From the IMG/VR virus record IMGVR_UViG_2902076858_000006: a stretch of DNA of 25,726 nt. One strand, written 5' to 3'. The DNA comes from an uncultured virus (IMG/VR IMGVR_UViG_2902076858_000006). Its lineage: Duplodnaviria > Heunggongvirae > Uroviricota > Caudoviricetes. The translations under genes and the position numbers were made by a program. The notes below the pieces were generated by a model that was given only the letters and a program-made list of their open reading frames with translations, made no database searches and was not told where the DNA came from. Positions 7,511-25,726 of the stretch are shown here, one piece after another; the first letter of the stretch is position 1, and the number at the start of each line of letters is the position of its first letter.

Positions 7511-7568
7511 TCCTAAGATTTTTTATCGAGAAGGGAGATGAGAAATAATAAGAGAGGTGAATTAAGAG

Positions 7569-8240
7569 TTATTTCTTCACATTCAAATAATCACGGCCAG
7601 ACAATTTAATTGAGATCCCCGAATCCATCATTTGCCCTACACTGCCATCAATGTTCATACCTGTCTCGACGGAGCCGTAATAAAACATGGAGCCTTCATC
7701 TCGCGTTAAGACCATTTTCACTGCGAATTTTTCTTTGCTGTTTTCATATTTACGCAAGAGTCGCTGCACATCACTGGAGCTATACCGTAAGAAAAAGGTC
7801 AATTTAATTGAGCCGTATTCCGTATCACCGGATTCATATTCTTTGCCATCACTGCAAATAGTGGTGACATCAATTTGTTCGGTTGTCGAACCGTCTTTGC
7901 TGAAACTTTTTACCGCACAGAAATTATTAGACCATTGAATGCGTTGTGCTTTGGCGTTTGCAAAATCCGTGGGTAACGTTTTATCACGCCAATCCACTTC
8001 CTCACACAAAGTCACTTTATTGCCATCAACCTGTGCAATGGGGAAACGCCCATCTAACTCCCCGAGTCCCGATAACATAATCATGTCATCCGCTTTCAGT
8101 TTATTATTGGCGATGGTAATGGTTGCCGGTGATAACGTCGCTTCCGTCACCGTCATCGCCTCCCCTAAGCCTGTTTGCACAAAGATCTTCGTGCCGAGGA
8201 AAGGCGTCGCTTTATGGTTTTTTGACTTTGCCATATCCAT
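7569..8240 (-). CDS. major tail (tube) protein
   Basis: 223 aa; TTEQIDVTTICSDGKEYE.G motif; synteny. Confidence 0.85.
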   Translation of the reverse strand: MDMAKSKNHKATPFLGTKIFVQTGLGEAMTVTEATLSPATITIANNKLKADDMIMLSGLGELDGRFPIAQVDGNKVTLCEEVDWRDKTLPTDFANAKAQRIQWSNNFCAVKSFSKDGSTTEQIDVTTICSDGKEYESGDTEYGSIKLTFFLRYSSSDVQRLLRKYENSKEKFAVKMVLTRDEGSMFYYGSVETGMNIDGSVGQMMDSGISIKLSGRDYLNVKK

Positions 8241-8243
8241 TCC

Positions 8244-8591
8244 TTATTTATCTGATGAAATCATTAATTCAAGAACAAGCCGATGCAATTTGACATCCGC
8301 TTCATACCCAAAGATCGCATTCACCCGTTGTGCAAATGGGATTGTCGCAACAATCTGAGTTTCAATCTTTTTACGCAAGACCATAAGGGGTTGTGGCTGT
8401 GGCGCATACACATCAAGTTGCACACGATAGTTGTCTAAATCCGTATCCTCCAGCGCACTGTTAGGCGTGATGCTGGCAAACTGGATCACAATGGCGGGAT
8501 AATGCCCTTTGCCTTCAGGTAATACCTGAAAAAAAACCCTTCCATCGACAAGCGGTGAAAGGGTCTCTTTTAATTGCTGTATCATGGTCAC
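8244..8591 (-). CDS. tail terminator protein (DUF3168 / gp11-like)
   Basis: RVQLDVYA motif; position before the tail tube gene. Confidence 0.8.
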   Translation of the reverse strand: MTMIQQLKETLSPLVDGRVFFQVLPEGKGHYPAIVIQFASITPNSALEDTDLDNYRVQLDVYAPQPQPLMVLRKKIETQIVATIPFAQRVNAIFGYEADVKLHRLVLELMISSDK

Positions 8592-9064
8592 TACCTTGCT
8601 TTTTCAATATCCTCTTTGAGTGTTTGAACAATCACTTTAGCCGTCGCTTCCTTTTTCGCTTCAAAGCTGGGGCGCATAAACGGTTGTGCGGGCATCTTGG
8701 CGGTGCCAAACTCAACAAACCACCAATAAAACGGATCATTTGGGTTCAATGCCGCACTTTTTCCCGTTGCCTGTTTAAAGGCAGACACCTTTTTACCCGA
8801 TAATGATTTCACCCAAATACGCGTTTTGACTTGTCCATTGCGTTGTACTTTCGTTTTAGAACGAATATTGCGCTTGATAGTGCCTTTGCGTCGATGCGGC
8901 ACCGTTTCCTTAAGGATAGGCACTCGATGTTTGATTTCCTGCTTTAACGCCGAAGCCCCTGCATTCATCGCCTTACGCGCACTTTGATTTCTGGTTTTAC
9001 GGGCGATATCTTGCATTCGTTGAGCGAGTTCAGACAATCCACTGATTTTAATCTCACCCATCAT
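8591..9064 (-). CDS. HK97 gp10-family tail completion protein
   Basis: YWWFVEFGTAKMPAQPFMRP signature. Confidence 0.92.
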   Translation of the reverse strand: MMGEIKISGLSELAQRMQDIARKTRNQSARKAMNAGASALKQEIKHRVPILKETVPHRRKGTIKRNIRSKTKVQRNGQVKTRIWVKSLSGKKVSAFKQATGKSAALNPNDPFYWWFVEFGTAKMPAQPFMRPSFEAKKEATAKVIVQTLKEDIEKAR

Positions 9065-9383
9065 TCACGCCCTCTTTGCACATTAATTGAAGCTCACGAT
9101 GACGCTCATAAGGGTCAATAATCGAAATAATATTAAATAGTCGCTTACCCCATACAATACGCATCGAGGTATCAATATCAGCAATATAGCGAATAAGAAT
9201 TCGCGTTGTGGCCTCACTTTGTACTTGCTGAGCTTGAAAATATTCTCGCCCTTGATAAGGCATGATCGCTGCACGTACTTTTGTCGCATGATCCGTCCAA
9301 ATCACATCACTGCCACTGATGGCATCGGGCGCTAATACTGATTTTTGAATATGAATAGTGTGGCGTAATCGTCCTGCACGCAT
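9054..9383 (-). CDS. head closure / head-tail adaptor (SPP1 gp16-like)
   Basis: MRAGRLRH N-terminus, GREYF, IRY, ELQLMCKEG. Confidence 0.92.
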   Translation of the reverse strand: MRAGRLRHTIHIQKSVLAPDAISGSDVIWTDHATKVRAAIMPYQGREYFQAQQVQSEATTRILIRYIADIDTSMRIVWGKRLFNIISIIDPYERHRELQLMCKEGVNDG

Positions 9384-9391
9384 AAAACCTC

Positions 9392-9718
9392 CTACAACCC
9401 ATAAATCCGGTAAGGTTGAAGTAGTGCGGTGACCGCAAAAGGTTGTGTAGAAAAAGCTTGCCCCGAAATTACCCCCTCACGATTTTCATACCATTGCGCA
9501 ATTAATAAGAGCATTGCCGCAATCACATCATCCGTTAAGAACAAGGCTTCAGGATCTTCTTGTGCTTTATCCATCTCCTGAGTTTTATGTAATGTTCGAC
9601 GCGTGTAATTTTCAACATATTTCACGGCGGAACCGATATACAGCGTCAATAAATTATCGTCATCCGTAAAATCAGGATCGATATTGCAATGCTGCTTCAC
9701 CAATTCGAGAGAAAGCAT
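9392..9718 (-). CDS. head-tail connector (HK97 gp6-like)
   Basis: LELVKQHCNID..DD.LL; AMLLLIAQWYENRE; LLQPYR. Confidence 0.92.
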   Translation of the reverse strand: MLSLELVKQHCNIDPDFTDDDNLLTLYIGSAVKYVENYTRRTLHKTQEMDKAQEDPEALFLTDDVIAAMLLLIAQWYENREGVISGQAFSTQPFAVTALLQPYRIYGL

Positions 9719-9906
9719 TATTTCTCCTTTTTCGCCTTAATATTTCTTTTCGGTTCAGGTTCAATAACAAGATGTGCTTCTTCCTGTTCTTTGGCATAGC
9801 CTTTTTGAATTAACTCCCGTCCATGTTGCTCTAAGGTATCAATCTGCTCACCTTCAAGCACCACTCGTCCCTCAAAATAAATGGCTCATAAGATGACTAA
9901 TTTCAT
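9718..9906 (-). pseudogene. small post-capsid protein (62 codons) with an in-frame TGA at codon 7
   Basis: Strong RBS GGAGGTGAT-ATG (9906). Reads MKLVIL*AIYFEGRVVLEGEQIDTLEQHGRELIQKGYAKE...KKEK-TAA; this stop overlaps the next ATG. Confidence 0.75.
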
Positions 9907-9916
9907 ATCACCTCCA

Positions 9917-9942
9917 AAGAAAAAGCGGCCATAAAGACCGCC
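9917..9942 (-). terminator. post-capsid intrinsic terminator
   Basis: Minus strand GCGGTC-TTTAT-GGCCGC-TTTTTCTTT directly after the capsid stop. Confidence 0.75.
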
Positions 9943-9951
9943 TTAGTTACA

Positions 9952-11172
9952 TTAATCACTTGACGTTGCTACCGTAAAATCACCGTAAACAAAGGCTTCT
10001 GGGCGTTTGATCGCCAAAGCAAGACGCTCTTCACAACGGATAGAGATCATGTTTTTCTCAAAATCATCGGCGTTTTCCGTTGAAATCACCACATTCGTTT
10101 CTTCGCGATCAAAGAGCTGTGCACCCGCATTAAATGCCCCTGTTAAGAATTTCCCTTTAAACGCGGGGGTTTCTGTTGCCACAACTGGTAATCCCCATAA
10201 AGTCGGCCCTGTTAATGCGGAAGGATTAGCCAAAATATAGCGCCCCAAAGCGTCTTTGGTTAGTTCAATTTTCGCCCAGTCAATAAAGTGTAAAACGTGA
10301 CCAGAAGCAGGGAAACGCGCCAATTGAGCTTGAAGCATGGCAAGCCGTAAATCATCGATACCGTTTTGTTTTTCAACCGTAAAGGAGGCTTTATATTGAG
10401 TGGCTTGTGGGATAATGCCGTGCAAATGAGCCCCAGAGCCATCACCAAATAAAATTTCTTGCTCTTCAACAAACTTCAATCCATAACGCATTTCTGCATC
10501 AATCAACGACTGCAACTGAGAAAAATCATCTAAGATTTGTTTAGACGCTTTAAACATATGAGCAATTGTCGTCACTGGCGTGATTTTGGTCGCAAAGGCA
10601 ATGTCGCTATACGGCTTAGTGGTATTTTCAGGCGCAACCGCCGCCTTGTTGGTAAACCCCGTTTGCTGAACCCAGAAAATGGCAGGAGATTGCGTTTTAC
10701 CTGACGCAATTAAGTCACGAATAAAAAGTCGTTGTTTCGGTGCAACATCGATACCCGACAATCGTTGTGGTTCAACCACGCCTTCGGCAACGCCCGTAGA
10801 TGTTAATGCTGCTTGAACAGGAATTGAAACACGTTTGCCCCCTTGAATGCTGGAATTGATCTCTTTTAATACTTCAGCCGAGATCACTTGTTGACCAACA
10901 CTTTTTACAACCTGCACCGCATTATTGAGTGGCATTTGCGCAACATGTTGTTCTAAATCCCCTAATGCGGCTTTCAGTGTTTTTTCAGATTCGCGTAGCG
11001 CATTTAGCTCGGTTGCCATTTTGTCTACGGCATGTTTCGTTTCTTCACTTAATCCACCCACTTTCTGCGCTTCTTTTAACGCTTCCTCAGCTTTGGCATT
11101 AAAATGTTGGTTGGCTTCTTCAATTTTTGCCGATAGGTTTTTTAATAATTCATTTGTCTCTGACATAGTCAC
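9952..11172 (-). CDS. major capsid protein, HK97 family
   Basis: Coiled-coil delta domain; EQEILFGDGSG..L.GI, TLWGLPVV, FEKNMISIRCEERLAL motifs. Confidence 0.95.
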   Translation of the reverse strand: MTMSETNELLKNLSAKIEEANQHFNAKAEEALKEAQKVGGLSEETKHAVDKMATELNALRESEKTLKAALGDLEQHVAQMPLNNAVQVVKSVGQQVISAEVLKEINSSIQGGKRVSIPVQAALTSTGVAEGVVEPQRLSGIDVAPKQRLFIRDLIASGKTQSPAIFWVQQTGFTNKAAVAPENTTKPYSDIAFATKITPVTTIAHMFKASKQILDDFSQLQSLIDAEMRYGLKFVEEQEILFGDGSGAHLHGIIPQATQYKASFTVEKQNGIDDLRLAMLQAQLARFPASGHVLHFIDWAKIELTKDALGRYILANPSALTGPTLWGLPVVATETPAFKGKFLTGAFNAGAQLFDREETNVVISTENADDFEKNMISIRCEERLALAIKRPEAFVYGDFTVATSSD

Positions 11173-18522: not shown

Positions 18523-18939
18523 TTATTTGGATAAATTAAGTGCTTTTAATAAACCTTCAGGCAACTGCTCTTCCAGTGACGCATTAGAAACAATCACAAG
18601 ACCATACATAGATATCCATGTATTCGTTTGTTGTAAGTGTCCTTGAATAAATTGCTTTGCTTTCTCTAACAAATAAATACAACTCTCTTGTGTGTTTTTA
18701 CGCCAATAGGATTCAATCGCCACCAGCAATGGGTCACCGGCATCACTAATTTTTTGCAAACCGATTCGATATTGCTTTTTACCTGCGGGAGACGTTGTAC
18801 AAATTAATTGTGTCAGTTGTTGAGTTTCACCATCAGCCGTATGGATATTCACCGTTAAAATGATAGAGGTATTCATTTCACTGTCTGTTTCTGATGCATA
18901 GTGAAGACTAAGCTGTAATTCGCTTATCTCTTTTGACAT
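18523..18939 (-). CDS. hypothetical 138-aa protein
   Basis: Clean ORF starting just downstream of structured element copy 2; no family recognised. Confidence 0.7.
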   Translation of the reverse strand: MSKEISELQLSLHYASETDSEMNTSIILTVNIHTADGETQQLTQLICTTSPAGKKQYRIGLQKISDAGDPLLVAIESYWRKNTQESCIYLLEKAKQFIQGHLQQTNTWISMYGLVIVSNASLEEQLPEGLLKALNLSK

Positions 18940-18969
18940 AACATTTACCGATTTATTTAGTTAATAAGG

Positions 18970-19027
18970 TGCCGACTCACAGCTCTTGTGTGAACAGTAT
19001 AAGTGGGTGTTGATTCTGTGGTCGACG
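18970..19027 (-). repeat. structured element, copy 2
   Basis: Minus strand GTCGACCACAG...CACAAGAGCTGTGAGTCGGC; U-G wobble on the minus strand. Confidence 0.7.
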
Positions 19028-19067
19028 TAGATGAAAAGGCTACAAAGTAACCTTATTTAATTTAGGG

Positions 19068-19097
19068 TTGAATACATTAATAAGAATAATTATCATT
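19068..19097 (+). promoter_or_regulatory. sigma70 promoter overlapped by a Fur box (copy A)
   Basis: TTGAAT-17 nt-TATCAT; TAAGAAT-A-ATTATCA (19081-19095) has 2 mismatches to the 7-1-7 Fur consensus TGATAAT-n-ATTATCA. Confidence 0.75.
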
Positions 19098-19102
19098 ACG
19101 CA

Positions 19103-19208
19103 TGTATCAAATTTGACAGGTCTGATACGAATTAGTACGACATGACTTACATTGCTTCTTGCGTTTATTTTATATGCCGATATGACTCCTAGCGTATCAG
19201 CATTTTTT
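19103..19208 (+). ncRNA. ryhB: RyhB-like Fur-regulated small RNA, copy A
   Basis: 5' hairpin GTATCA...TGATAC; core AGTACGACATGACTTACATTGCTTC versus E. coli RyhB AGCACGACATTGCTCACATTGCTTC; U-rich tract, terminator hairpin (one mismatch) and poly-T. Confidence 0.78.
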
Positions 19209-19295
19209 ATTTTGCGTTGAGTGGTTTTTTGTACGGATAATTTAGATGTGTATTTTAGATTTAGCACGATAACTCAAGATTAAATCTAGTCAGAT

Positions 19296-19321
19296 AGTCC
19301 ACTCATTACCAGAAGTAGGCT
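19296..19321. repeat. 26-bp degenerate palindromic cargo-boundary site L1
   Basis: AGTCCACTCATTACCAGAAGTAGGCT; its reverse complement resembles the R sites; ends 7 nt from the DUF3800 stop. Confidence 0.55.
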
Positions 19322-19328
19322 TTAACCT

Positions 19329-20441
19329 TTACAATTTTATACCATGTAAAAACCAATTATTTCTTCGTTGCTCTCTCTCGCTACTAACTACATGAAAAAA
19401 TCCTCTGCTAACATCCTCAGAAATATCAATAATACGTTTTAATGCGGAAAGTGTCTTAAATTGCTGACTAGTTAAATTTGCCTTATCAAGTGCTAATTGT
19501 TCATCATTTACATCTTTTAAGTAAGAAAAATACTTACCCAAAAATCCTGCGATAACGTCAGATAGTTGAATAGCCTCTGAGTTGTGGGATTTAACAAACT
19601 CATAATTATGTATTGGCATGTCATTGTCAGTTAGCGCGAAATCTTTAACATCACCCTGAATGCTTTTTTCTTCATCAAATATGTGAATGGAATTTTTAAA
19701 TAAAAATAAATTTCTTAAATAAAACACCATAAAACTATCGATCAGTTCTCGACCATGAGATCCCGATATGAATGGTAGATCTTCGACTTTAAGAGATTCT
19801 TTAACTAAACTTTTAAGCACGTTTGCTCGAAAATTCGGCAACATACAACTGTACATGCATGTAAAATCGATAAGCCATAGGCAAAACACATGAGCTTTTT
19901 CTTCAGGAATATTGGGATAGCTAAATTCATGTAGAGCATTCAGAAAAATATCAGAATTGCTATTGACAAGCTCATAGAAATCACTTTTAAGTGACATGTG
20001 GTTCATTATATAAAAAGGATGATGTAACTCACCAATAAGAGAATCAATAATGTCAATAACAGACCAGTACACGATATTAAGATTAAAGTAATGGATGTAA
20101 AATTTGTTTTCGATGAGCCAATTTAGAATAATTAAAAGCTTATCAGATTTAAGCATATCCAAAAAATTACCCTTAGCAATATGCTTGAGCTTTAGCTCAT
20201 GCGTACTTCCCTGAAGATTAAGCATTTGAAATAGTATTGAATAATCACTATCAGTGCTTAATCCTTTGTGTAGTATGCCGGCAAGGATGAAATTATCCGT
20301 CTTGTTAACATTAAAGCCAGAATCTTTTAAATATAGCTTTCGAATGTTATTCGTTTCATCATAATAAAATGTATAGACTTCATCAGTATTTTGAAGATCA
20401 TGATGCTGGATGAGCATTTCTCTATGTTTATTGACATCCAT
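19329..20441 (-). CDS. DUF3800-domain protein (RNase H-like fold), putative defence nuclease
   Basis: N-terminal YTFYYDETNN and C-terminal SHNSEAIQLSDVIAG motifs of DUF3800; probable start ATG 20441 after AAGGGG. Confidence 0.75.
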   Translation of the reverse strand: MDVNKHREMLIQHHDLQNTDEVYTFYYDETNNIRKLYLKDSGFNVNKTDNFILAGILHKGLSTDSDYSILFQMLNLQGSTHELKLKHIAKGNFLDMLKSDKLLIILNWLIENKFYIHYFNLNIVYWSVIDIIDSLIGELHHPFYIMNHMSLKSDFYELVNSNSDIFLNALHEFSYPNIPEEKAHVFCLWLIDFTCMYSCMLPNFRANVLKSLVKESLKVEDLPFISGSHGRELIDSFMVFYLRNLFLFKNSIHIFDEEKSIQGDVKDFALTDNDMPIHNYEFVKSHNSEAIQLSDVIAGFLGKYFSYLKDVNDEQLALDKANLTSQQFKTLSALKRIIDISEDVSRGFFHVVSSEREQRRNNWFLHGIKL

Positions 20442-20473
20442 TTCATTCCCCTTATGTAATTCTCCAAAGAAGG

Positions 20474-20644
20474 TCAATTTCCACAATCACCATATAAATC
20501 ACCAAGTTCTAGATAAGTTATACCCGCATATGACAAACCATCATAACTTTGCATGTTGCTATTGGTGGAGTACTACCAAAGTCATGACCACATGGGTAAT
20601 GCAAGAGCAAAAACATCGAATAGAGATTGTGGTAGCTTTTTCAT
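20474..20644 (-). pseudogene. decayed ORF fragment upstream of the DUF3800 gene
   Basis: ATG 20644: MKKLPQSLFDVFALALP / GHDFGSTPPIAT / QSYDGLSYAGITYLELGDLYG reads as protein-like text across two frameshifts. Confidence 0.35.
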
Positions 20645-20733
20645 ATATACAGGCAATATCCCTAAATATTTTCGAAATGCCTGTAGCGAATTGTGAACAG
20701 ATTTTAAGTTAGCCTAACAAACATACTAATGGA

Positions 20734-20801
20734 TGTCAGCTTCTCGTTCATGATGGACAACCATACTCAAATCTCCCAAATTGTAGGAGATGGAGCAGAC
20801 A
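20734..20801. repeat. inter-cassette imperfect hairpin containing boundary site R1
   Basis: TGTCAGCTTCTCGTTCATGATGGACA (20734-20759); outer arms TGTCAGCTTC / GGAGCAGACA and inner ATCTCC/GGAGAT. Confidence 0.5.
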
Positions 20802-20940
20802 CAGCGCAAACAGAAATAAAAATGTATTATATAATGTAGAATTACATAACTGTAGTTAAAAGACACTTCACATGGGTACATCATAACGTGATGATATCTA
20901 AACATATAGTATATTAAAACGTAAAGAAAAGGATTTATCA

Positions 20941-22449
20941 GTGGCGATCGTTAAAACATTTCATCTTAAAAGCAATCCCTTCGAGCATTACACTGCTGAA
21001 AATGAACCAGATATAAGTTTATATGCAGTAAGACCACCTTACCTTTCAGCCATAACTGATAGAGCCAGAAAGCTAAATTCTTTCATACTTTTTGGCAAAA
21101 GAGGGGCTGGTAAAAGTGCAACACGGTTGACAGTGTTTAAAGAAAATTATTCAACAGAAGAAAAAAAACCATTTTTAGTTAACTTAACTGACTTTACTGA
21201 TTTAATTGAAAAGTTTAAAAAAGGGAAGTTGACAGAAAGAGATATCATTTATCTTGTTGCCTACAATGTAATAGAGCAAATGTTAGGATGGATTTCTTTA
21301 CTTGATGAAGTTGAAAGAAAAAAAGTAATATCACAATTAAGCGCCAAACAGCGAGAATTGATTTTTGCATTGTTAAAAGGTTTTTATCTCTCTAAGAGCG
21401 AAGGAGAACGAGAGTTAACTACTGAAAACACTTTGAAATTATTGGATAGTGCATGGTTTAAAAAAAGTCAGGTATGGACAATTCACAGATGGGAATCTAT
21501 AAGTAAAGTTATAGCAGCAGCCATTAACGCACTTTCAAAAAAAACTTTAGAAGATGACACCATTGATATATCTAAGCCTGCTGAGGAATTACTTAAAAGC
21601 CTTACTGGTGAATCAGCCAATGCCCCACGGATTCTAATTAGCCGTTTAGTCTACTTTAGTCAATCTTTCGGTTTTTCGGGTATTTGTGTCTTAATTGATA
21701 AACTTGATGAAACTACTGTTACTACTAATTCTTCAGAAGCAACGGCTAAATTAATTTTTCCTTTACTATCAAATATACAGCTACTAGAGATTAGTAACTT
21801 TTCATGGATCGCATTTGTATGGGATGCAGTACAAGCTCATTTCAATAACAAGTATAAAATCAGACTGGATAAAATAGCTCATACAAATATATCATGGGAT
21901 AATGATGAACTTAAGGAAATGTTAGACAAAAGGATGTCATTCTTCTCAGATGGAAAATTAAACTTTGAAGGCATACTGAATATTAGTGGAGATAAAGGTA
22001 AGGCTATTGATCAACTTATTCATATTTCTGTTAAATCTCCACGAGAGCTCATAAAGCTATGCGACATCATATTTAGGGAGCATGATGCAAATGAATTAAA
22101 AGGCGGTATTAATGAACAGTCTTTGAACTCGGGGATTGACAAATATTGCCTAGATACAATCGGAACATGGTATGACAATGATGTCTTACAGCAAATTTAC
22201 AGATTAGGTAAAGATAATTTTGTCAACAAAGACGTTCAAAATTTATTTAAAATAAGTGATCAAGGTGCTCGTAATAAAATTAGAGGCTGGGAAGACATGC
22301 AAGTTGTTAAAAAAAAGGGCACCGCTCCGAGTGATGCAGGTGGCAAGTCAGTAACTCTTTATGAAGTAGCGGATCCTCGTATAGTCAGAATAATAAATAG
22401 AAAACTTGATCCTACTGTTGGTTTGTCAAATTTAAGCCAAGAAGAGTGA
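20941..22449 (+). CDS. P-loop ATPase (Sll1717/STAND-like) with C-terminal winged HTH
   Basis: Walker A GKRGAGKS, Walker B CVLIDKLDE, SPRELIK, C-terminal NKDVQNLFKISDQGARNKIRGWE; AAGGA RBS and GTG start. Confidence 0.8.
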   Translation: MAIVKTFHLKSNPFEHYTAENEPDISLYAVRPPYLSAITDRARKLNSFILFGKRGAGKSATRLTVFKENYSTEEKKPFLVNLTDFTDLIEKFKKGKLTERDIIYLVAYNVIEQMLGWISLLDEVERKKVISQLSAKQRELIFALLKGFYLSKSEGERELTTENTLKLLDSAWFKKSQVWTIHRWESISKVIAAAINALSKKTLEDDTIDISKPAEELLKSLTGESANAPRILISRLVYFSQSFGFSGICVLIDKLDETTVTTNSSEATAKLIFPLLSNIQLLEISNFSWIAFVWDAVQAHFNNKYKIRLDKIAHTNISWDNDELKEMLDKRMSFFSDGKLNFEGILNISGDKGKAIDQLIHISVKSPRELIKLCDIIFREHDANELKGGINEQSLNSGIDKYCLDTIGTWYDNDVLQQIYRLGKDNFVNKDVQNLFKISDQGARNKIRGWEDMQVVKKKGTAPSDAGGKSVTLYEVADPRIVRIINRKLDPTVGLSNLSQEE

Positions 22450-22475
22450 GCAATATCACTTAATTTGTGATTTAT

Positions 22476-22496
22476 GCACTGTTAACAGTGCTTTTT
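22476..22496 (+). terminator. terminator after the ATPase gene
   Basis: GCACTG-TTAA-CAGTGC followed by TTTTT. Confidence 0.7.
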
Positions 22497-22519
22497 ATCT
22501 TTCATAGAAAAATTGTCAG

Positions 22520-22647
22520 TATCCGTTTTTCGCTCAAACCAGACTGCCAGTCTCTAATTGTGTTCAACTTACAAACTTTGCAAACCCAAATTTGAATCAG
22601 TGCTCTTACAAAAACAATTAAGGCTACACATTATGCGTAGCCTTAAT
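22520..22647. repeat. right arm of duplicated module, copy A (site R2 plus hairpin); homologous to 25162-25297
   Basis: Shared blocks CGCTCAAACCAGACT, ACTTAC, CAAATTTGA, ACAAAAACAATT and a terminal hairpin. Confidence 0.75.
22617..22647 (-). terminator. terminator-like hairpin
   Basis: ATTAAGGCTAC...GTAGCCTTAAT, followed on the minus strand by TGTTTTTGT. Confidence 0.6.
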
Positions 22648-22731
22648 CTTATTCACGTTATCTAACTCAATTATTTTTTATCACTATTGTTTGCCGTTTT
22701 TCCATTTACCGATTTATTTTAGTTAATAAGG

Positions 22732-22789
22732 TGCCGACTCACAGCTCTTGTATGAACGGTATAAGTGGGTGTTGATTCTGTGGTCGGCG
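22732..22789 (-). repeat. structured element, copy 3
   Basis: Minus strand GCCGACCACAG...TACAAGAGCTGTGAGTCGGC. Confidence 0.7.
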
Positions 22790-22829
22790 TAGATGAAAAG
22801 GCTACAAAGTAACCTTATTTAATTTAGGG

Positions 22830-22859
22830 TTGAACATATTGATGAGAATAATTATCATT
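22830..22859 (+). promoter_or_regulatory. sigma70 promoter overlapped by a Fur box (copy B)
   Basis: TTGAAC-17 nt-TATCAT; TGAGAAT-A-ATTATCA (22843-22857) has 1 mismatch to the Fur 7-1-7 consensus. Confidence 0.82.
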
Positions 22860-22864
22860 ACAAA

Positions 22865-22970
22865 TGTATCAAATTGACAGGTTTGATACGAATTAGTACG
22901 ACATGACTTACATTGCTTCTTGCGTTTATTTTATATGCCGATATGACTCCTAGCGTATCGGCATTTTTTT
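22865..22970 (+). ncRNA. ryhB: RyhB-like Fur-regulated small RNA, copy B
   Basis: Perfect 5' stem GTATCAAA/TTTGATAC, RyhB-like core ACGACATGACTTACATTGCTTC, terminator ATGCCGATA/TATCGGCAT plus T7. Confidence 0.82.
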
Positions 22971-23295
22971 ATTGTATTGAGCAGTCCTTTCATACTTGTA
23001 ATTTAGAGATATATGATCAAATTCAATCTAATATTACTATGATTTAAGTCTAAATCTAATCAGATAGTCCGCACAGTGCCAAAAGATGCCTTAAGAAAAC
23101 TGTAAATTTGCATTAAGTGTGGTGCTATAACTCATCTGATTCAAATAAATTCGCATTTGAATTCATTTTGTGAAAACGATCTTAAAAAGCGGTTAAATCA
23201 ATATGTTATTGTGATGTTATAGTAGTATATTGTACTACATATGTGTTAGTAAACGTTTTGGTGCTGATATTGTTAACTATATAAAAGGAGTTATT

Positions 23296-24369
23296 ATGTG
23301 TGAAAATCCTATGGACATTAATGAATCCGAACAAAAAAATGCTATACAAGAACAAATTGCGGAAGTTCTTATGGATTATGAACTTCCCCCTCCCGGAGGG
23401 ATGAACTCAGCACATGTAGGTCGTTGGATAGAGCAATTTGAGGAAAGAGACAGACTTTTCATTCTTAAGCAAACGCTGGCGTTACTTCGAAACGCATATA
23501 TAAGCAAAAGTAATTATATAGATAAAATTAATGATATTCTTAGACATAAGAAGAATTTTTCTATAATCCGCGAATCAGCGTTCCTTAATATACAAGAAGC
23601 TAATCGTGGGACTAGTCAGAGAGATTTACTGGAACTGTTAGAAAGCCAAGCAGAGGAATCTGAAGAATTAGATATAGTTATTTTATCAAGAACGTCAACA
23701 AAACAAAAAGTTGAAGAATTTAATAGATTCATCTACTTCGACGATGTTTGTTTTTCTGGGAATAAGGCCTTGAACGATATTACTTGGTTTGTAGAATACT
23801 TTGATCTAAGTAATATTACTATTCGCGTGTGTTTCTTGGGAACTCATCGATATGCAACCTATATGCTAAAGACGACTCTCGAGAGAAAATTTCAAGAGCG
23901 AAATATCTCACTGATGATCAAAGAAGATGGATTCCTCAAAACGCGCGAAAATCGCCTTAGGTATTCCTCATCTTCTGAAGTTTTTTGGTTGCGCAGAAAT
24001 GGTATTGAGCTACCAGGCTGGATCCAACATCCGGAGATCTATACATCGCGTGAGGGCACTGAAAGGACTCATTTTGAGCCAAACGACATCTTTCTCAACA
24101 AAGCAGATCGCTATCGTTTTGAATATGCACTAACAAAGGCTGGTTTTTATATACTTCAGCAAAGTCAAAATCCTGCTTCGATTCTCAAACCTCTCGGCTT
24201 TTCAACATTCTCTGGACTAGGATTTGGTGGAACCATTTTTACTTATCGAAATTGTCCAAATAATACTCCACTAGCTTTTTGGTGGGGAAGATATGAGCGC
24301 GATGAGATTCCAAATTGGGCACTGGATTGCTGGTATCCATTAATGCGCAGAATTGGGTATAATCAGTAA
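23296..24369 (+). CDS. phosphoribosyltransferase-like protein (PRTase-CE-like)
   Basis: PRPP-loop-like FIYFDDVCFSGNK; C-terminal PLGF..F.GLGFG...YRNCPNNTPLAFW; AAGGAG RBS before ATG 23296. Confidence 0.7.
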   Translation: MCENPMDINESEQKNAIQEQIAEVLMDYELPPPGGMNSAHVGRWIEQFEERDRLFILKQTLALLRNAYISKSNYIDKINDILRHKKNFSIIRESAFLNIQEANRGTSQRDLLELLESQAEESEELDIVILSRTSTKQKVEEFNRFIYFDDVCFSGNKALNDITWFVEYFDLSNITIRVCFLGTHRYATYMLKTTLERKFQERNISLMIKEDGFLKTRENRLRYSSSSEVFWLRRNGIELPGWIQHPEIYTSREGTERTHFEPNDIFLNKADRYRFEYALTKAGFYILQQSQNPASILKPLGFSTFSGLGFGGTIFTYRNCPNNTPLAFWWGRYERDEIPNWALDCWYPLMRRIGYNQ

Positions 24370-24371
24370 CT

Positions 24372-24983
24372 ATGAGCTATAGAATTTATCCAAACAATGA
24401 GACTGTCAGTTTCAGGAAAACGACGGAAAAATGGGGTGGTCTATCTAACATGTCGCGTGGATATCCACTGTATGTTAACGATATTCCTATCCAATCGAGT
24501 GAAATCCTCTATCAGGCCTGCCGTTACCCCGACTATCCGGAAATACAAAAGGAGATAATTACTCTAAGCAATCCCTTTGAGGCGAAGCAAGTGGCTAGAT
24601 ACTATGAGCCGAAAACACGTGACGGTTGGGAAAAAAATCGAGTGTCCATAATGAAATGGTGCGTCCGGATAAAGCTTTGCCAGAATTGGGAAAGCTTTTT
24701 TCCACTCCTTAATTCTACAGGTAATATTAATATTGTTGAACATTCTGAAAAAGATCTTTTCTGGGGAGCTCGCCGTGAATCAGATGGTAGTTTTTACGGG
24801 ATGAATGTACTTGGTAGAATACTCATGGAAACTAGGGAAATAGCTAGAGCGCGTGGGCAAGACGGTTTCAAATTTATCCCTGCTCTGCAATTAGATAAAT
24901 TTCTACTACTGGGCGAACCGATCAAAGGTACTTCTACACTAAAACTGGGGCCATCCACAGGGCAAACCATGGAATTGTTTTAG
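24372..24983 (+). CDS. NADAR (YbiA-like) family N-glycosidase
   Basis: LSNM...SSE.LYQA.RY...EAK...W...MKW...K..QN...L.STG...IVEHS..D.FWG...G.N.LGRILMETRE; starts 2 nt after the upstream stop. Confidence 0.88.
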   Translation: MSYRIYPNNETVSFRKTTEKWGGLSNMSRGYPLYVNDIPIQSSEILYQACRYPDYPEIQKEIITLSNPFEAKQVARYYEPKTRDGWEKNRVSIMKWCVRIKLCQNWESFFPLLNSTGNINIVEHSEKDLFWGARRESDGSFYGMNVLGRILMETREIARARGQDGFKFIPALQLDKFLLLGEPIKGTSTLKLGPSTGQTMELF

Positions 24984-25010
24984 TTAGTTTCTAGCAAGGT
25001 ACATTTTACC

Positions 25011-25032
25011 CTCTCTTACAATAGTAAGAGAG
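25011..25032. terminator. perfect 9-bp hairpin after NADAR
   Basis: CTCTCTTAC-AATA-GTAAGAGAG; no clear U tract. Confidence 0.45.
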
Positions 25033-25161
25033 CCTATTCAAATTAGAAATATACACTGTACAGTTTTAACGCTTTGCTGTAAGGTTCTTAATAGATCAAT
25101 GAACCGTCAAGGATGATCTAAAATCTCCAAGCCCTTTCTTCTTTGAACATTTTACATATTA

Positions 25162-25297
25162 TGTCCACTTAGCGCTCAAACCAGACTATCTGGTCTAGAT
25201 TGTTTTTACTTACGACGCCTGTCAACTCAAATTTGAGTTAATACAATTTAGAACCTTTGACAAAAACAATTTTGACTGTACATAACGCATAGTCATA
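25162..25297. repeat. right arm of duplicated module, copy B (site R3 plus hairpin)
   Basis: TGTCCACTTAGCGCTCAAACCAGACT...CAAATTTGA...ACAAAAACAATT...TGACTGTAC/GCATAGTCA. Confidence 0.75.
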
Positions 25298-25302
25298 AAT
25301 AG

Positions 25303-25330
25303 CAAAAAACCCCGCCGAAGCGAGGTTTTG
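25303..25330 (-). terminator. intrinsic terminator of the csp-ymcF-like transcript
   Basis: Minus strand AAAACCTCGC-TTCG-GCGGGGTTTTTT, UUCG tetraloop. Confidence 0.85.
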
Positions 25331-25350
25331 TATATTCAACTATTTAATGC

Positions 25351-25506
25351 TTAACTCATTTGAGCTGTCATCACACTTTTGCAAAAGATACATTTTGCGC
25401 CGTGTGGGTTGTTCACTGTGACATCAAATTGTGATGTTCTATATTGTGATGTTCTATATTGTGAACCGCTACAACAAGGGCATTTAAAATAGAGGCGAAT
25501 AGTAAT
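25351..25506 (-). CDS. ymcF: YmcF/YnfQ-family cold-shock zinc-ribbon small protein, ATT start
   Basis: (ATT)TIRLYFKCPCCSGSQYRTSQYRTSQFDVTVNNPHGAKCIFCKSVMTAQMS; CPCC..SQYRTS.FDV...NP.GAKCIFCKS matches YmcF; directly downstream of csp. Confidence 0.85.
   Translation of the reverse strand: MTIRLYFKCPCCSGSQYRTSQYRTSQFDVTVNNPHGAKCIFCKSVMTAQMS
25429..25464. repeat. 15-bp tandem duplication inside the ymcF-like gene
   Basis: TTGTGATGTTCTATA x2 plus TTGTGA. Confidence 0.9.
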
Positions 25507-25513
25507 AGCGCCT

Positions 25514-25726
25514 TTAGAGAGCCACCACATTGCCTGCTGCTGGGCCTTTCATACCATTTTCCATGGTGAATGAAACTTGTTGGCCTTCAGCTAATGTTTT
25601 GAAGCTATCACTTTGGATTGCAGAGAAATGTACGAAAACATCTTTGCTGCCATCAGCTGGAGTAATAAAACCAAAACCTTTACCTTCATCGAACCATTTT
25701 ACTGTACCAGTCATTGTATTAGACAT
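25514..25726 (-). CDS. cold-shock protein, CspA family (CspB/G/I-like)
   Basis: RNP1 KGFGFI and RNP2 VFVHF; 70 aa. Confidence 0.96.

What the first reader, a model, noticed from the sequence alone, without database searches (positions are those of the whole stretch)
19281..25203. Family of ~26-bp palindromic sites bracketing each cargo gene: an integron-like cassette system without a visible integrase
Seen: three right-hand sites align without gaps: TGTCAGCTTCTCGTTCATGATGGACA (20734), TATCCGTTTTTCGCTCAAACCAGACT (22520) and TGTCCACTTAGCGCTCAAACCAGACT (25162). Two left-hand sites, AGTCCACTCATTACCAGAAGTAGGCT (19296) and AGTCCGCACAGTGCCAAAAGATGCCT (23066), resemble them in reverse complement (consensus about GTCCGCT-N10-AGCRGAC). 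The inversion extends outward: TAAATCTARTCAGATAGTC (19281, 23051) versus GACTATCTGGTCTAGATTG (25184-25202). Homology between the two units stops at these sites. Between the two cargo genes of unit A, 20734-20801 folds as a longer imperfect hairpin, reminiscent of an attC. Inference: these are recombination or insertion sites through which cassettes are gained, acted on in trans by an unidentified recombinase.
Basis: partly seen in the sequence, partly recalled or inferred. Interest (0 to 1): 0.78.

Follow-up and report, generated by a model that had tools for sequence, protein, structure and literature searches.

The report
Swappable anti-phage gene cassettes in prophage
Three anti-phage gene cassettes in a Proteus-type prophage are bounded by short recombinase-type DNA sites that also bound unrelated cargo in unrelated phages, which points to a cut-and-swap route by which phages trade defence genes.

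Summary
The five sites are real and non-random. Each is a 24-bp core of a 9-bp arm, a 6-bp spacer and an inverted 9-bp arm. There are two classes. L sites (spacer GTGCCA-like) lie at 19297 and 23067. R sites (spacer TCGCTC-like) lie at 20735, 22521 and 25163.

Models trained on other phages rank four of them (all but 20735) top in the window. Homology to related prophages and to the same cargo elsewhere breaks inside the cores.

The sites match the inverted repeats of the phage P2 Z region (Nilsson 2004). In E. coli and the nearest genome, G001, the same sites flank a 200-aa tyrosine recombinase gene. The window lacks that gene but keeps 57 bp of its upstream site and leader (20735-20791).

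The cargo is defence genes: DUF3800/PDC-S51, DS-41 and DS-32.

This is not an integron. There is no attC-like fold and no IntI, and the sites are double-stranded palindromes of two spacer classes, which suggests cassette exchange.

The tandem "units" were not made at the sites: unit B replaces an hsp20 gene, and other strains carry unit B alone.

The window's cargo-side arms are decayed. This scan noted the same system earlier on other genomes. My seven paper searches found no paper naming the recombinase.

The parts
18942..19208 (.). L arm A: non-coding backbone leader just upstream (in the sense of late transcription) of the first late gene, 18523-18939 (-). It is repeated at 22703-22975.
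   Evidence: Direct repeats D1, D2 and D19 are 94-100% identical. The arm is conserved in G001 (94.8%), in phage vB_BPM-V3 (first ~100 bases) and in L059, L108 and L112.
19209..19296 (.). Left landing-pad flank of unit A. It includes the outward inverted extension at 19281-19296.
   Evidence: Homology to G001 ends at 19208. Four-way alignment of left and right flanks. The extended L matrix scores 25.8 bits.
19297..19320 (+). L site A: GTCCACTCA-TTACCA-GAAGTAGGC. The spacer and the cargo-side arm are degenerate.
   Evidence: Second-best L-matrix hit in the window: 16.4 bits against a shuffle maximum of 15.0. It scores 17.2 against a training median of 33.4.
19329..20486 (-). Cassette 1 cargo: DUF3800 / PDC-S51 candidate defence gene. 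The likely start is the ATG at 20441.
   Evidence: PF12686 at E = 9e-8. PDC-S51 at E = 1.3e-107. It is 85.6-85.8% identical in DNA to the Z-region cargo of the P2-like phage fiAA91-ss and of an E. coli M10 prophage.
20735..20758 (+). Hybrid R site: GTCAGCTTC-TCGTTC-ATGATGGAC. The cargo-side arm belongs with the DUF3800 cassette. The other arm is of the type found upstream of the recombinase gene.
   Evidence: Four-sequence alignment: the window follows fiAA91-ss to the left of the core and the recombinase-upstream loci (L009, L035) to the right.
20759..20791 (+). Truncated leader of a lost small tyrosine recombinase gene. It ends inside the stem that, in intact copies, covers the ribosome-binding site and start codon.
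   Evidence: Matches of 48-66 bases at 82-91% identity in 24 loci. In 14 of those 24 loci the element runs into an intact 200-codon recombinase ORF. tblastn finds no recombinase in the window.
20792..20800 (+). GGAGCAGAC: probably the cargo-side arm of the L site that once followed the recombinase gene. This is inferred.
   Evidence: It reads like the right arms of L sites elsewhere, such as GGAGCGGAC and AAAGCAGAC. Its position is shown. Only 9 bases, so this is weak.
20941..22449 (+). Cassette 2 cargo: DS-41 anti-phage P-loop ATPase.
   Evidence: NF053860 at E = 1e-119, 400.5 bits against a cut-off of 370. The family was validated in E. coli by DefensePredictor (passages read).
22521..22544 (+). 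R site A: ATCCGTTTT-TCGCTC-AAACCAGAC.
   Evidence: Best R-matrix hit in the window: 33.8 bits against a shuffle maximum of 11.1. Homology to L059, L108 and L112 resumes at 22522-22529.
22545..22646 (.). Right landing-pad flank of unit A. It ends in a 15-base-arm hairpin at 22617-22647.
   Evidence: About 75% identical to 25187-25298. 80% identical to L059, L108 and L112. Inverted repeat I23.
22647..22702 (-). 3' end remnant of an hsp20-family gene. This is the illegitimate joint between the two units.
   Evidence: In L059, L108, L112 and G235 this stretch continues into a 152-aa ORF. The L059 copy, the only one scanned, is HSP20, PF00011, E = 1.8e-17.
22703..22975 (.). L arm B, the second copy of the backbone leader.
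   Evidence: D1, D2, D19. 96.3% identical to G001.
22976..23066 (.). Left landing-pad flank of unit B, with the outward extension at 23051-23066.
   Evidence: (D4). The extended L matrix scores 32.4 bits.
23067..23090 (+). L site B: GTCCGCACA-GTGCCA-AAAGATGCC. The cargo-side arm is degenerate.
   Evidence: Best L-matrix hit: 20.9 bits. Homology to the same cassette in L166 and L167 starts at 23076, the first base of the spacer. Homology to same-backbone prophages ends at 23082-23085.
23296..24983 (+). Cassette 3 cargo: the two-gene DS-32 system. The PRTase-like gene is 23296-24369 (the ORF is open from 23230). The NADAR gene is 24372-24983.
   Evidence: NF053875 at E = 4.1e-86 and NF053876 at E = 4.8e-79, both above their cut-offs. 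Pfam PRTase-CE and NADAR. DS-32 is described in DefensePredictor (passages read).
25163..25186 (+). R site B: GTCCACTTA-GCGCTC-AAACCAGAC.
   Evidence: Second-best R-matrix hit: 30.4 bits.
25187..25298 (.). Right landing-pad flank of unit B, with the outward inverted extension at 25187-25202.
   Evidence: (D5, D8, D9).
25299..25333 (-). Hairpin plus T-run that marks the far edge of the variable region. In phage vB_BPM-V3 it lies just downstream of gene Q.
   Evidence: Conserved in G001, G235, G098, L004, L059, L108 and L112. Annotation of vB_BPM-V3 and its sequence.

Best explanation
Setting. The window is a lambda-like, HK97-type prophage of the Proteus group. The variable region lies just upstream of its lysis genes.

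What the region holds. It carries three gene cassettes, each bounded by core-type sites for a tyrosine recombinase. A core is a 9-bp arm, a 6-bp spacer and an inverted 9-bp arm.
- Each cassette's left boundary is an L site (spacer GTGCCA).
- Each cassette's right boundary is an R site (spacer TCGCTC).
- R is roughly L inverted, but the spacers differ at 2 of 6 positions.
- The outer arm of each site stays with the phage backbone or with a linker. The inner arm travels with the cargo.

Likely enzyme (inferred). It is a roughly 200-aa, catalytic-domain-only tyrosine recombinase. Its gene elsewhere sits in the linker between an R site and the next L site. It would act here in trans.

Likely mechanism (inferred). 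Because the two site classes should not recombine with each other, a cassette would be neither excised nor inverted on its own. It would move in one of two ways:
- by paired L x L and R x R crossovers between two landing pads, a natural form of recombinase-mediated cassette exchange; or
- as a circle of cargo + R + linker + L, cut out of an array that has two like sites.

History of unit A (inferred). Unit A once had the layout L - DUF3800 - R - recombinase - L - DS-41 - R. The recombinase gene was then deleted, leaving 57 bp of its site and leader.

What the sites did not do (shown). The two-unit tandem layout was not produced at the sites. It came from an illegitimate joint (22702/22703) that put unit B in place of an hsp20 gene.

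Current state (inferred). The window's cargo-side arms and one spacer have drifted, so these copies are probably poor substrates now.

Shown: the sites, their two classes, the breakpoints, and the link to the recombinase gene. Inferred: catalysis by that enzyme and the exchange route.
For: 1. Architecture found independently of the window.
- An exact-pattern scan of viral contigs gave 120 loci and 95 distinct contexts. Of these, 80 carry the conserved outer flank.
- Those 80 abut 75 different cargo-side sequences.
- Information content is near zero (most columns about 0.1 bit, none above 0.2) up to 13 bases before the spacer, then 0.8-1.5 bits per column across the arm GTCCGCT.

2. Matrices from other phages pick out four of the window's five sites (22521, 25163, 23067, 19297); 20735 scores at chance on them and rests on point 4.

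3. Same backbone, different cargo.
- Three viral contigs have the same late genes, L arm, R arm and terminator as the window (L059, L108, L112).
- They carry other cargo: a PIN_8 protein; a SIR2/PDC-S25 protein plus a 350-aa protein; and a 343-aa protein plus an RlmF-like methyltransferase.
- Their homology to the window ends at 19253-19315 (unit A) or 23082-23085 (unit B) and resumes at 22522-22529.

4. Same cargo, different backbone.
- The DUF3800 cassette is 85.6% identical to the Z-region cargo of the P2-like phage fiAA91-ss.
- At the right end the window follows fiAA91-ss up to the R core, then switches to the recombinase-upstream sequence, which is unrelated to the P2 flank.
- The DS-32 cassette is 85.7% identical in L166 and L167. 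That homology starts at the first base of the L spacer, while the outer arms differ (GTCCGCACA against GAAGGCTCT).

5. Link to the enzyme.
- In 14 of 24 loci that share the window's 20735 element, it runs into an intact 200-codon ORF that matches Phage_integrase, E = 1.3e-18.
- Conservation around that gene starts at an R core and ends at an L core.
- An E. coli prophage shows the full layout: L, cargo, R, 18 bp, L, cargo, R, recombinase, L, cargo, R.
- DNA of the gene is found in 892 of 5,426 complete E. coli genomes.

6. The nearest genome, G001 (same genus group), has an intact copy. It is 87% identical, has an open frame and has R and L sites on either side. Its R, H-x-x-R, H and Y residues align with the catalytic residues of XerD.

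7. Hint of co-variation. In 5 of 11 distant homologues inspected (58-63% identity), an arm-spacer-arm motif lies about 80-110 bases upstream of the gene but with spacer GGGTCG.
Against: - No recombinase is encoded in the window. The window's own genome is not held, so whether the strain has one is unknown.
- None was found in G235 or in the three same-backbone virus records, two of which are 95-100% complete.
- The window's L sites score 17-20 bits against a training median of 33.4. Their cargo-side arms score 6.2 and 2.6 against a median of 11.0.
- Site 20735 scores at chance level on the P2-type matrix.
- The left side of the DS-41 cassette is only a 9-base remnant.
- DS-32 homologues in two E. 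coli prophages lie between gene P and the nin region without such sites. The related G001 prophage fills the same slot with a PDC-S06 gene and no sites. The hotspot is therefore also filled by other routes.
- Empty alleles lack the whole landing pad. The model does not explain how pads are installed.
- No direct sign of recombination was seen. Only assembled contigs, not raw reads, were available.
- The idea that L and R cannot recombine with each other rests on spacer sequence alone.
Confidence: 0.7

Rival explanations
1. The sites are only the inner ends of conserved boundary sequences. Cargo is swapped by ordinary homologous recombination (host RecA or phage recombinases) between the roughly 60-110-bp flanks. 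No site-specific enzyme is involved.
For: - The flanks outside the cores are conserved across backbones for about 15-50 bases and form long inverted repeats.
- GenBank annotates repeats of 113 and 91 bases in P2-EC53.
- The window's own cores are decayed, yet the cassettes are present.
- A 2026 survey of P2 and P4 hotspots lists homologous and illegitimate recombination among possible routes (passages read).
Against: - Two breakpoints involving the window's own cassettes join sequences with no similarity beyond the core. One joins a P2 flank to the recombinase leader at 20735. The other joins different outer arms and flanks at 23067.
- Cargo-side arms are kept as a motif next to 75 unrelated cargo sequences. 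Homology-driven exchange would not require this.
- The recombinase gene is bounded by exactly one site of each class.
Confidence: 0.12
2. The cores are genuine recombination sites, but the enzyme is not the 200-aa recombinase. It is a host enzyme such as XerC/XerD (as proposed for the pdif modules of Acinetobacter plasmids) or the prophage's own integrase.
For: - Most site-bearing elements lack the small recombinase. Only 2 of the 120 viral loci from the R-site scan have it within the fetched stretch (up to 5 kb each side), and none of three same-backbone virus records has it.
- Modules flanked by inverted recombinase sites are the hallmark of pdif modules (recalled, not from a call).
Against: - The small recombinase gene is always framed by the two site classes where it occurs.
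- A distant clade of the enzyme has a matching motif with a different spacer.
- I made no comparison with dif or with phage att sites, so this rival is lowered by association only.
Confidence: 0.08
3. The whole block from the outer end of the left flank to the outer end of the right flank is a non-autonomous transposon with long terminal inverted repeats. A transposase moves it in trans, and the palindromic cores are part of its ends.
For: - Empty alleles lack the complete block. In Yersinia phage P37 only 133 bases separate G and FI. At a second place in G235 the end of the L arm lies about 40 bases from the end of the R arm.
- The inverted similarity runs well beyond the cores.
Against: - Cargo changes while the flanks stay in place, in 75 different junctions. 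The mobile unit is therefore the inside, not the whole block.
- I saw no target-site duplication when reading the P37 and fiAA91-ss junctions.
- No transposase is in the window.
- This rival may still explain how landing pads are first installed.
Confidence: 0.05
4. It is an integron, or a cluster of attC sites without an integrase.
For: Cassettes with short imperfect palindromes at their borders and no integrase nearby resemble such a cluster superficially. Anti-phage cassettes are known in integrons (search listing and abstract only).
Against: - The candidate "attC" folds no better than shuffles.
- The sites are sequence-conserved 24-bp duplex palindromes of two classes, and the genes lie on both strands.
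- The associated recombinase scores 16-17 bits on the integron-integrase models, against cut-offs of 265-435.
- An Rfam scan found only the cspA element.
Confidence: 0.01

Closest known systems
Inverted repeats flanking the Z region (Z/fun locus, between G and FI) of P2-like coliphages. Source: Nilsson, Karlsson and Haggard-Ljungquist, Mol Biol Evol 2004. I could not read the paper; I saw its GenBank records and how later papers cite it.
   Same: - The site family is the same. L and R matrices trained mostly on P2-like contigs pick out four of the window's five sites (all but 20735).
- GenBank AJ512682 annotates "left" and "right inverted repeat" around the cargo.
- One of the window's cassettes (DUF3800) is itself Z-region cargo in fiAA91-ss and in an E. 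coli M10 prophage.
[quoted passage not shown]
   Different: - Here the pad sits upstream of the lysis genes of a lambda-like Proteus-group prophage, not in a P2 tail operon.
- There are three cassettes in two units.
- A remnant of a recombinase gene lies between cassettes.
- In the passages I could read, the literature names no enzyme and no two-class site grammar.
Integrons (IntI, attI, attC cassettes)
   Same: A tyrosine recombinase is inferred to move promoter-poor accessory (often anti-phage) gene cassettes in and out of a fixed platform. Arrays of several cassettes occur.
   Different: - There is no folded single-strand attC.
- The sites are conserved duplex 9-6-9 cores.
- Two spacer classes flank each cassette in inverted orientation.
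- The enzyme has 200 aa and lacks the N-terminal domain. It scores far below the integron-integrase cut-offs.
- The enzyme gene sits inside the array between cassettes, not at its head.
pdif modules of Acinetobacter plasmids (gene modules flanked by inverted XerC/XerD sites). Recalled, not from a call.
   Same: Accessory-gene modules are bracketed by pairs of short tyrosine-recombinase sites in inverted orientation. They occur in many backbones, usually without a dedicated recombinase nearby.
   Different: A dedicated small recombinase gene is associated with the sites here. Similarity to dif was not tested.
Recombinase-mediated cassette exchange with heterospecific lox or FRT sites, a laboratory method (abstract seen in the listing)
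   Same: Two site variants share arms but have different spacers and flank a cassette. Under the inferred model, exchange needs two like-with-like crossovers, and self-excision is avoided.
   Different: That method is engineered. Here the layout is natural, and the incompatibility of L and R spacers is inferred from sequence (GTGCCA against the reverse complement GAGCGA), not measured.
FimB/FimE-type DNA invertases
   Same: The enzyme is of similar size (about 200 aa, catalytic domain only). There is a weak match to the NCBIfam tyrosine-type DNA invertase model (E = 1.1e-5).
   Different: - The score is 25 bits against a cut-off of 222, so it is not a member.
- No invertible promoter segment is present.
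- The DUF3800 cassette has the same orientation relative to L and R in the window and in fiAA91-ss.

Membership tests
Integron | IntI-type integrase | tested here: not met
   The window has no integrase by tblastn (best E = 0.92) or by a Pfam scan of 39 ORFs. The associated 200-aa recombinase scores 16.7 and 16 bits on NF011946 and TIGR02249, against cut-offs of 435 and 265.
Integron | attC sites that fold as imperfect single-strand hairpins | tested here: not met
   20730-20806 folds at -8.3 kcal/mol, z = -0.59, and 52 of 200 shuffles fold as well. The other sites are 24-bp palindromes with conserved sequence.
Integron | Cassettes co-oriented behind a common promoter next to the integrase | tested here: not met
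   The DUF3800 gene is on the - strand. DS-41 and DS-32 are on the + strand.
P2 Z-region repeat-flanked cassettes | Left and right inverted repeats of the same sequence family around the cargo | tested here: met
   Matrices trained mainly on P2-like contigs score four of the window's five sites far above shuffles; the fifth, 20735, scores at chance level. The repeats are annotated in AJ512682.
P2 Z-region repeat-flanked cassettes | Located between tail genes G and FI of a P2-like phage | tested here: not met
   The window is an HK97-type lambda-like prophage, and the pads lie upstream of the lysis genes.
P2 Z-region repeat-flanked cassettes | Cargo shared with Z regions | tested here: met
   The DUF3800 cassette is 85.6-85.8% identical to cargo between G and FI in fiAA91-ss and E. 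coli M10. No such match was found for DS-41.
Tyrosine-recombinase core site | Two inverted binding arms around a 6-8-bp spacer | tested here: met
   The 9-6-9 layout is seen in 80 R contexts and 37 L contexts. Arm columns carry 0.8-1.5 bits next to unrelated DNA.
Tyrosine-recombinase core site | A cognate recombinase with the catalytic R, H-x-x-R, H and Y residues | tested here: inconclusive
   It is present beside the same sites in E. coli and G001, and its residues align to XerD. It is absent from the window, and the window's genome is not held.
Tyrosine-recombinase core site | Strand exchange at the spacer | not testable with these tools
   Comparative breakpoints fall at the spacer edges. 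No raw reads or biochemistry were available.
pdif (XerC/XerD) modules | Sites that match XerC and XerD binding arms | not tested
   No comparison with a dif site was run.
FimB/FimE DNA invertases | Score above the family cut-off | tested here: not met
   NF007371 scores 25 bits against 222. NF007370 scores 18.1 bits against 221.

The most novel reading that the evidence does not exclude
A natural recombinase-mediated cassette-exchange system operates across Enterobacterales.
- A FimB-sized tyrosine recombinase rides in the linker between cassettes.
- It uses two mutually incompatible site classes (L and R).
- With them it swaps anti-phage genes between portable landing pads installed in unrelated temperate phages (P2-like, lambda-like) and chromosomes.
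- This would be a main engine of the rapid defence-gene turnover seen in phage hotspots.
Probability: 0.5. Interest if true: 0.85.

Novelty: new variant of a known kind. Interest (0 to 1): 0.72.

Why it matters
How defence systems hop between the hotspots of unrelated phages is still treated as open. In the passages I read of a 2026 survey of thousands of P2 and P4 hotspots, the authors weigh transposons, homologous recombination and illegitimate recombination. They do not mention site-specific cassettes.

This locus, with its relatives, makes a concrete mechanism testable:
- defined 24-bp sites in two classes;
- a named candidate enzyme of only 200 aa;
- base-level breakpoints.

If it works as inferred, it would explain why the same defence gene turns up in a P2 tail operon in E. 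coli and upstream of the lysis genes of a Proteus prophage. It would also give a way to find new defence genes, namely anything that lies between an L and an R site. And it would offer a compact natural system for cassette exchange.

Tried and rejected
- The window's own genome is not held, so I could not look for the recombinase in the strain.
- Nilsson 2004 and Odegrip 2006 are not held. What they say is taken from GenBank features and from passages in citing papers.
- DS-41 relatives: none in viral contigs, none in 401 family genomes with NF053860, where the controls did not ring either, and none in the phage records by tblastn. The borders of that cassette could not be tested by comparison.
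- The Rfam gathering scan found only the cspA thermoregulator. No tRNA was found.
- The strict terminator scan of the L arm found nothing. I therefore dropped the idea that the L-arm hairpin is a terminator of a small RNA.
- Sequencing runs: only assembled contigs were available. The listed contigs of X1, the likely source, do not cover 22603-22804, so the joint between units is not independently confirmed.
- A short X15 contig that seems to join the end of the L arm (22975) to 22611 through 6 letters has too short a side to count.
- No support either way came from searching earlier scan notes by words or by place.
- Seven paper searches found no paper that names the recombinase or the two site classes. 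Supplements were not opened.

Full report
**Setting**

The window is a prophage with its late genes on the minus strand. These include the tape measure, HK97-type capsid, protease, portal, terminase, lysozyme and Rz genes. Its lysis region is 77-93% identical to Proteus phage vB_BPM-V3 and 94-95% identical to a prophage in the nearest held genome, G001.

The finding lies between two landmarks:
- the first late gene, 18523-18939 on the minus strand;
- a hairpin plus T-run at 25299-25333, which in vB_BPM-V3 lies just downstream of the antiterminator gene Q.

In the window that hairpin follows a YmcF-like gene and a cspA-like gene with its thermoregulator leader.

G001 is collinear with the window up to 19208 and again from 25293. 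In between it carries an unrelated 733-aa PDC-S06 gene. This is therefore a variable cargo slot of the phage lineage.

**The observation**

The region has two units with like ends.
- Left arms, 18942-19322 and 22703-23092: 94-100% identical over the first 270 bases, 74% over the last 57.
- Right arms, 22522-22646 and 25164-25298: about 75% identical.
- Between the arms nothing is shared.

The five sites sit exactly where the similarity ends. Read as 9-6-9 cores they are:

| Site | Coordinates | Sequence |
|---|---|---|
| L-A | 19297-19320 | GTCCACTCA-TTACCA-GAAGTAGGC |
| R | 20735-20758 | GTCAGCTTC-TCGTTC-ATGATGGAC |
| R-A | 22521-22544 | ATCCGTTTT-TCGCTC-AAACCAGAC |
| L-B | 23067-23090 | GTCCGCACA-GTGCCA-AAAGATGCC |
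| R-B | 25163-25186 | GTCCACTTA-GCGCTC-AAACCAGAC |

Weaker inverted similarity runs on for about 55 bases.

The stretch 20730-20806 does not fold better than chance: z = -0.59, and 52 of 200 shuffles fold as well.

**Are the sites more than chance?**

I built models from DNA that is not the window.

An exact scan of viral contigs for the 16-base inner part of the R site gave 120 loci. Of 95 distinct contexts, 80 have a conserved outer flank, and these abut 75 different cargo-side sequences. The other 15 look like chance matches.

In the 80 contexts, information per column behaves as follows:
- near zero (most columns about 0.1 bit, none above 0.2) up to 13 bases before the spacer;
- 0.7-1.3 bits at two A positions;
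- 0.8-1.5 bits across GTCCGCT.

The cargo-side arm is thus a conserved motif set in unrelated DNA.

Upstream of 58 of 102 such R sites lies an L-type core, with consensus GTCCGCTCT-GTGCCA-RRAGCGGAC. After the core the sequence becomes variable.

| Matrix | Window hits (bits) | Best of 60 shuffles |
|---|---|---|
| R core | 22521: 33.8; 25163: 30.4 | 11.1 |
| L core, 37 contexts, five doubtful hits and three same-backbone contexts (of the four such loci excluded) dropped | 23067: 20.9; 19297: 16.4 | 15.0 |
| L core plus 15-base extension | 32.4; 25.8 | 17.5 |

Nothing else in the 25.7 kb stands out.

The site at 20735 is at chance level on the P2-type R matrix (0.5 bits). A different line of evidence carries it (below).

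**What the 20735 element is**

A search of 301 genomes of the family with the whole region gave 28 places in 24 genomes that match only window 20730-20797, at 82-91% identity.
- In 14 of the 24 loci fetched, the element runs straight into an intact 200-codon ORF. In several of the other loci the ORF is cut short.
- The protein is a Phage_integrase-family tyrosine recombinase (E = 1.3e-18). It consists of little more than the catalytic domain.
- It falls far below the cut-offs of the Xer, integron-integrase and Fim-type invertase models.
- Conservation around the gene begins at an R core (GTCCGCTTC-TCGCTC-ATAAGGGAC). It ends, 40 bases after the stop codon, at an L core (AGCAGCCCT-GTGCCA-GAAGCGGAC).
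- DNA of the gene occurs in 892 of 5,426 complete E. coli genomes, with at least 80% coverage in 772. It sits inside lambda-like prophages among variable genes.

One E. coli prophage shows the full layout: L 5847, cargo, R 7021, 18 bases, L 7063, cargo, R 9004, recombinase, L 9688, cargo, R 11234.

In the window the element stops after GGAGAT at 20791, inside the stem that covers the start codon in intact copies. It is followed by GGAGCAGAC, which reads like the cargo-side arm of an L site. The simplest reading is that a recombinase gene once lay between the DUF3800 and DS-41 cassettes and was deleted.

**Breakpoints**

Same backbone, other cargo. Three viral contigs (L059, L108, L112) have the window's lysis genes, L arm, right arm and terminator, but a single unit with different cargo:
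- a PIN_8 protein;
- a SIR2/PDC-S25 protein plus a 350-aa protein;
- a 343-aa protein, an internal R-like core, and an RlmF-like methyltransferase.

Their similarity to the window ends at 19253-19315 (unit A) or 23082-23085 (unit B) and resumes at 22522-22529. Across these phages and the window's unit B, the outer arm and spacer are constant: GTCCGCACA-GTGCCA on the left and TCGCTC-AAACCAGAC on the right. Unit A's L site has drifted (GTCCACTCA-TTACCA), and unit B's R spacer reads GCGCTC. The inner arm changes with the cargo.

Same cargo, other backbone.
- The DUF3800 cassette is 85.6% identical to cargo lying between tail genes G and FI of the P2-like phage fiAA91-ss and of an E. coli M10 prophage. 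That cargo is bounded there by GTTCGCTCT-GTGCCA-AAAGCAGAA and GTCTGCTAT-TCGCTC-AAAGCAGAC.
- In a four-way alignment the window follows fiAA91-ss up to the R core and the recombinase-upstream loci after it. The two right-hand contexts are unrelated, so homologous recombination cannot have made this joint.
- The DS-32 cassette is 85.7% identical in viral contigs L166 and L167 over window 23076-25128. Position 23076 is the first base of the L spacer, and the outer arms and flanks differ.
- A third copy (L168) has an intact R core 180 bases after the NADAR gene, the same distance as in the window.

**The enzyme in the window's neighbourhood**

The window encodes no recombinase or transposase. The best tblastn E-value is 0.92, and 39 ORFs were scanned against Pfam.

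G001 has an intact copy. It is 87% identical and has an open frame.
- An R core lies upstream of it, an L core downstream, and two further R cores follow the next genes.
- Its R, H-x-x-R, H and Y residues align with the catalytic residues of XerD.

No copy was found in G235 or in the three same-backbone virus records, which are 43%, 100% and 95% complete. Action in trans is therefore required by the model.

Across the class, 24 of 400 sampled genomes (23 of 321 genera) hold a homologue at E <= 1e-15. This tally includes two unpublished genomes, G546 and G713. I used their loci for nothing else.

In 5 of 11 homologue loci inspected (58-63% identity), an arm-spacer-arm motif lies about 80-110 bases upstream of the gene with spacer GGGTCG instead of TCGCTC. 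This hints that the site changes with the enzyme. I did not test it further.

**How it most likely works**

Shown:
- There are two site classes with like arms and different spacers.
- L lies to the left and R to the right of each cassette.
- R is roughly an inverted L. The reverse complement of TCGCTC is GAGCGA, which matches GTGCCA at 4 of 6 positions.
- Outer arms stay with the backbone or linker, and inner arms travel with the cargo.
- The recombinase gene lies in an R-to-L linker.

Inferred from the general rule that tyrosine recombinases need matching spacers:
- L and R do not recombine with each other, so a lone cassette is neither inverted nor lost.
- Cassettes move by paired L x L and R x R crossovers between two pads, or as circles cut from arrays that hold two like sites. 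Such circles may carry the recombinase gene along.

Unit A of the window (L, DUF3800, R, recombinase remnant, DS-41, R) has the layout such a circle would leave.

The window's sites look worn:
- L scores are 17.2 and 20.3, against a training median of 33.4 and a lower quartile of 31.1.
- Cargo-side arms score 6.2 and 2.6, against a median of 11.0.
- Two spacers carry one or two changes.

**The tandem units**

The joint between the units is not at a site.
- Window 22647-22702 is the 3' end of an hsp20-family gene. In L059, L108, L112 and G235 that gene is complete (152 aa; the L059 copy matches PF00011) and lies between the right arm and the terminator.
- In the window it is cut after 56 bases and joined to the first base of L arm B. 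Unit B then runs straight into the terminator.
- In run X9, from another study, one 28.9-kb contig joins the late gene directly to unit B and runs on to 25333, with no unit A. Eighteen other runs hold about 0.2-0.3 of the stretch (four of the 22 listed runs were laid).

So a phage carrying unit B alone is common. The window's layout arose by an unequal, illegitimate joint with a phage carrying unit A.

The listed contigs of X1 (share 0.92, possibly the source) do not cover 22603-22804. The joint therefore rests on the window's assembly alone.

**Landing pads are themselves gained and lost**

- Yersinia phage P37 has only 133 bases between G and FI. It lacks both long repeats as well as the cargo.
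- At a second place in G235 the end of the L arm lies about 40 bases from the end of the right arm.
- I found no allele in which an L and an R site are simply fused. Within arrays, R-18 bp-L linkers do occur.
- How pads are installed is unexplained.

**What is known**

GenBank records from the 2004 study annotate "left inverted repeat" and "right inverted repeat" around Z-region cargo. [quoted passage not shown] Other papers call the Z region a hotspot of accessory cassettes (passages read). I could not read the 2004 paper itself.

Seven full-text searches found no paper that names the recombinase, the two site classes, or arrays in lambda-like prophages. In the passages I read, a 2026 survey of P2 and P4 hotspots lists transposons, homologous recombination and illegitimate recombination as possible routes and does not mention these sites.

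Earlier notes of this scan describe the same recombinase and 24-bp sites on other genomes. They gave me the lead to the 2004 paper and the "9-6-9" wording. The tests above are my own.

**Verdict**

- The integron label is wrong.

This locus is a somewhat decayed member of an under-described cassette system. The system was first glimpsed in P2. Here it is extended to a Proteus-group lambda-like prophage and carries a scar of its probable enzyme.

Noticed in passing
window 25351-25726: A cspA-like cold-shock gene lies inside the prophage, on the Q side of the hotspot. It has a full cspA thermoregulator leader (Rfam RF01766, 163 bits) and a YmcF-like gene beside it. The same pair is conserved in G001, G235 and three viral contigs.
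   Followed up: partly
window 19110-19208 and 22871-22969: The inner 99 bases of the duplicated L arm are 97% identical between the two copies. They end in a 7-bp-stem hairpin followed by a T-run on the + strand, antisense to late transcription. The strict terminator scan did not call it, and its role is unknown.
   Followed up: partly
window 20499-20705: The window's DUF3800 cassette carries about 200 extra bases that the fiAA91-ss copy lacks. They overlap a 100-codon ORF (20410-20712, + strand) with no Pfam or PADLOC match.
   Followed up: no
run X2, laid on window 18900-22799: A 2,281-base contig joins the late-gene start (18943) to L arm B (22718) through 1,958 other letters. Another strain may therefore carry a different first unit in the same tandem layout.
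   Followed up: no
L005 (G001) 7497-10517: The related G001 prophage fills the same slot with a 733-aa PDC-S06 (AAA_13, PrrC-like) gene plus an 85-aa ORF. There are no L or R sites (no matrix hit of 12 bits or more near it).
   Followed up: partly
L162 (E. coli A35) 9138-9941: An E. coli lambda-like prophage has a DUF3800 gene between Q and the holin gene, the same relative place as in the window. In the same prophage DS-32 lies between gene P and the nin genes without sites.
   Followed up: partly
L173-L177: Homologues of the small recombinase at 58-63% identity, in other Gammaproteobacteria, have an arm-GGGTCG-arm motif about 80-110 bases upstream. This may be a sister system with a different spacer.
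   Followed up: partly
L165 (Yersinia phage P37) 829-961; L039 reverse strand 751-949 (G235): These are alleles that lack the whole repeat-bounded landing pad. The pads are insertions or deletions in their own right, and their mode of installation is unexplained.
   Followed up: partly
L112 about 3005-3030 and 3234-4262: A same-backbone prophage carries, behind an internal R-like core, a GC-richer segment with an RlmF-like 23S rRNA methyltransferase gene. It looks like captured chromosomal DNA rather than a defence gene.
   Followed up: no
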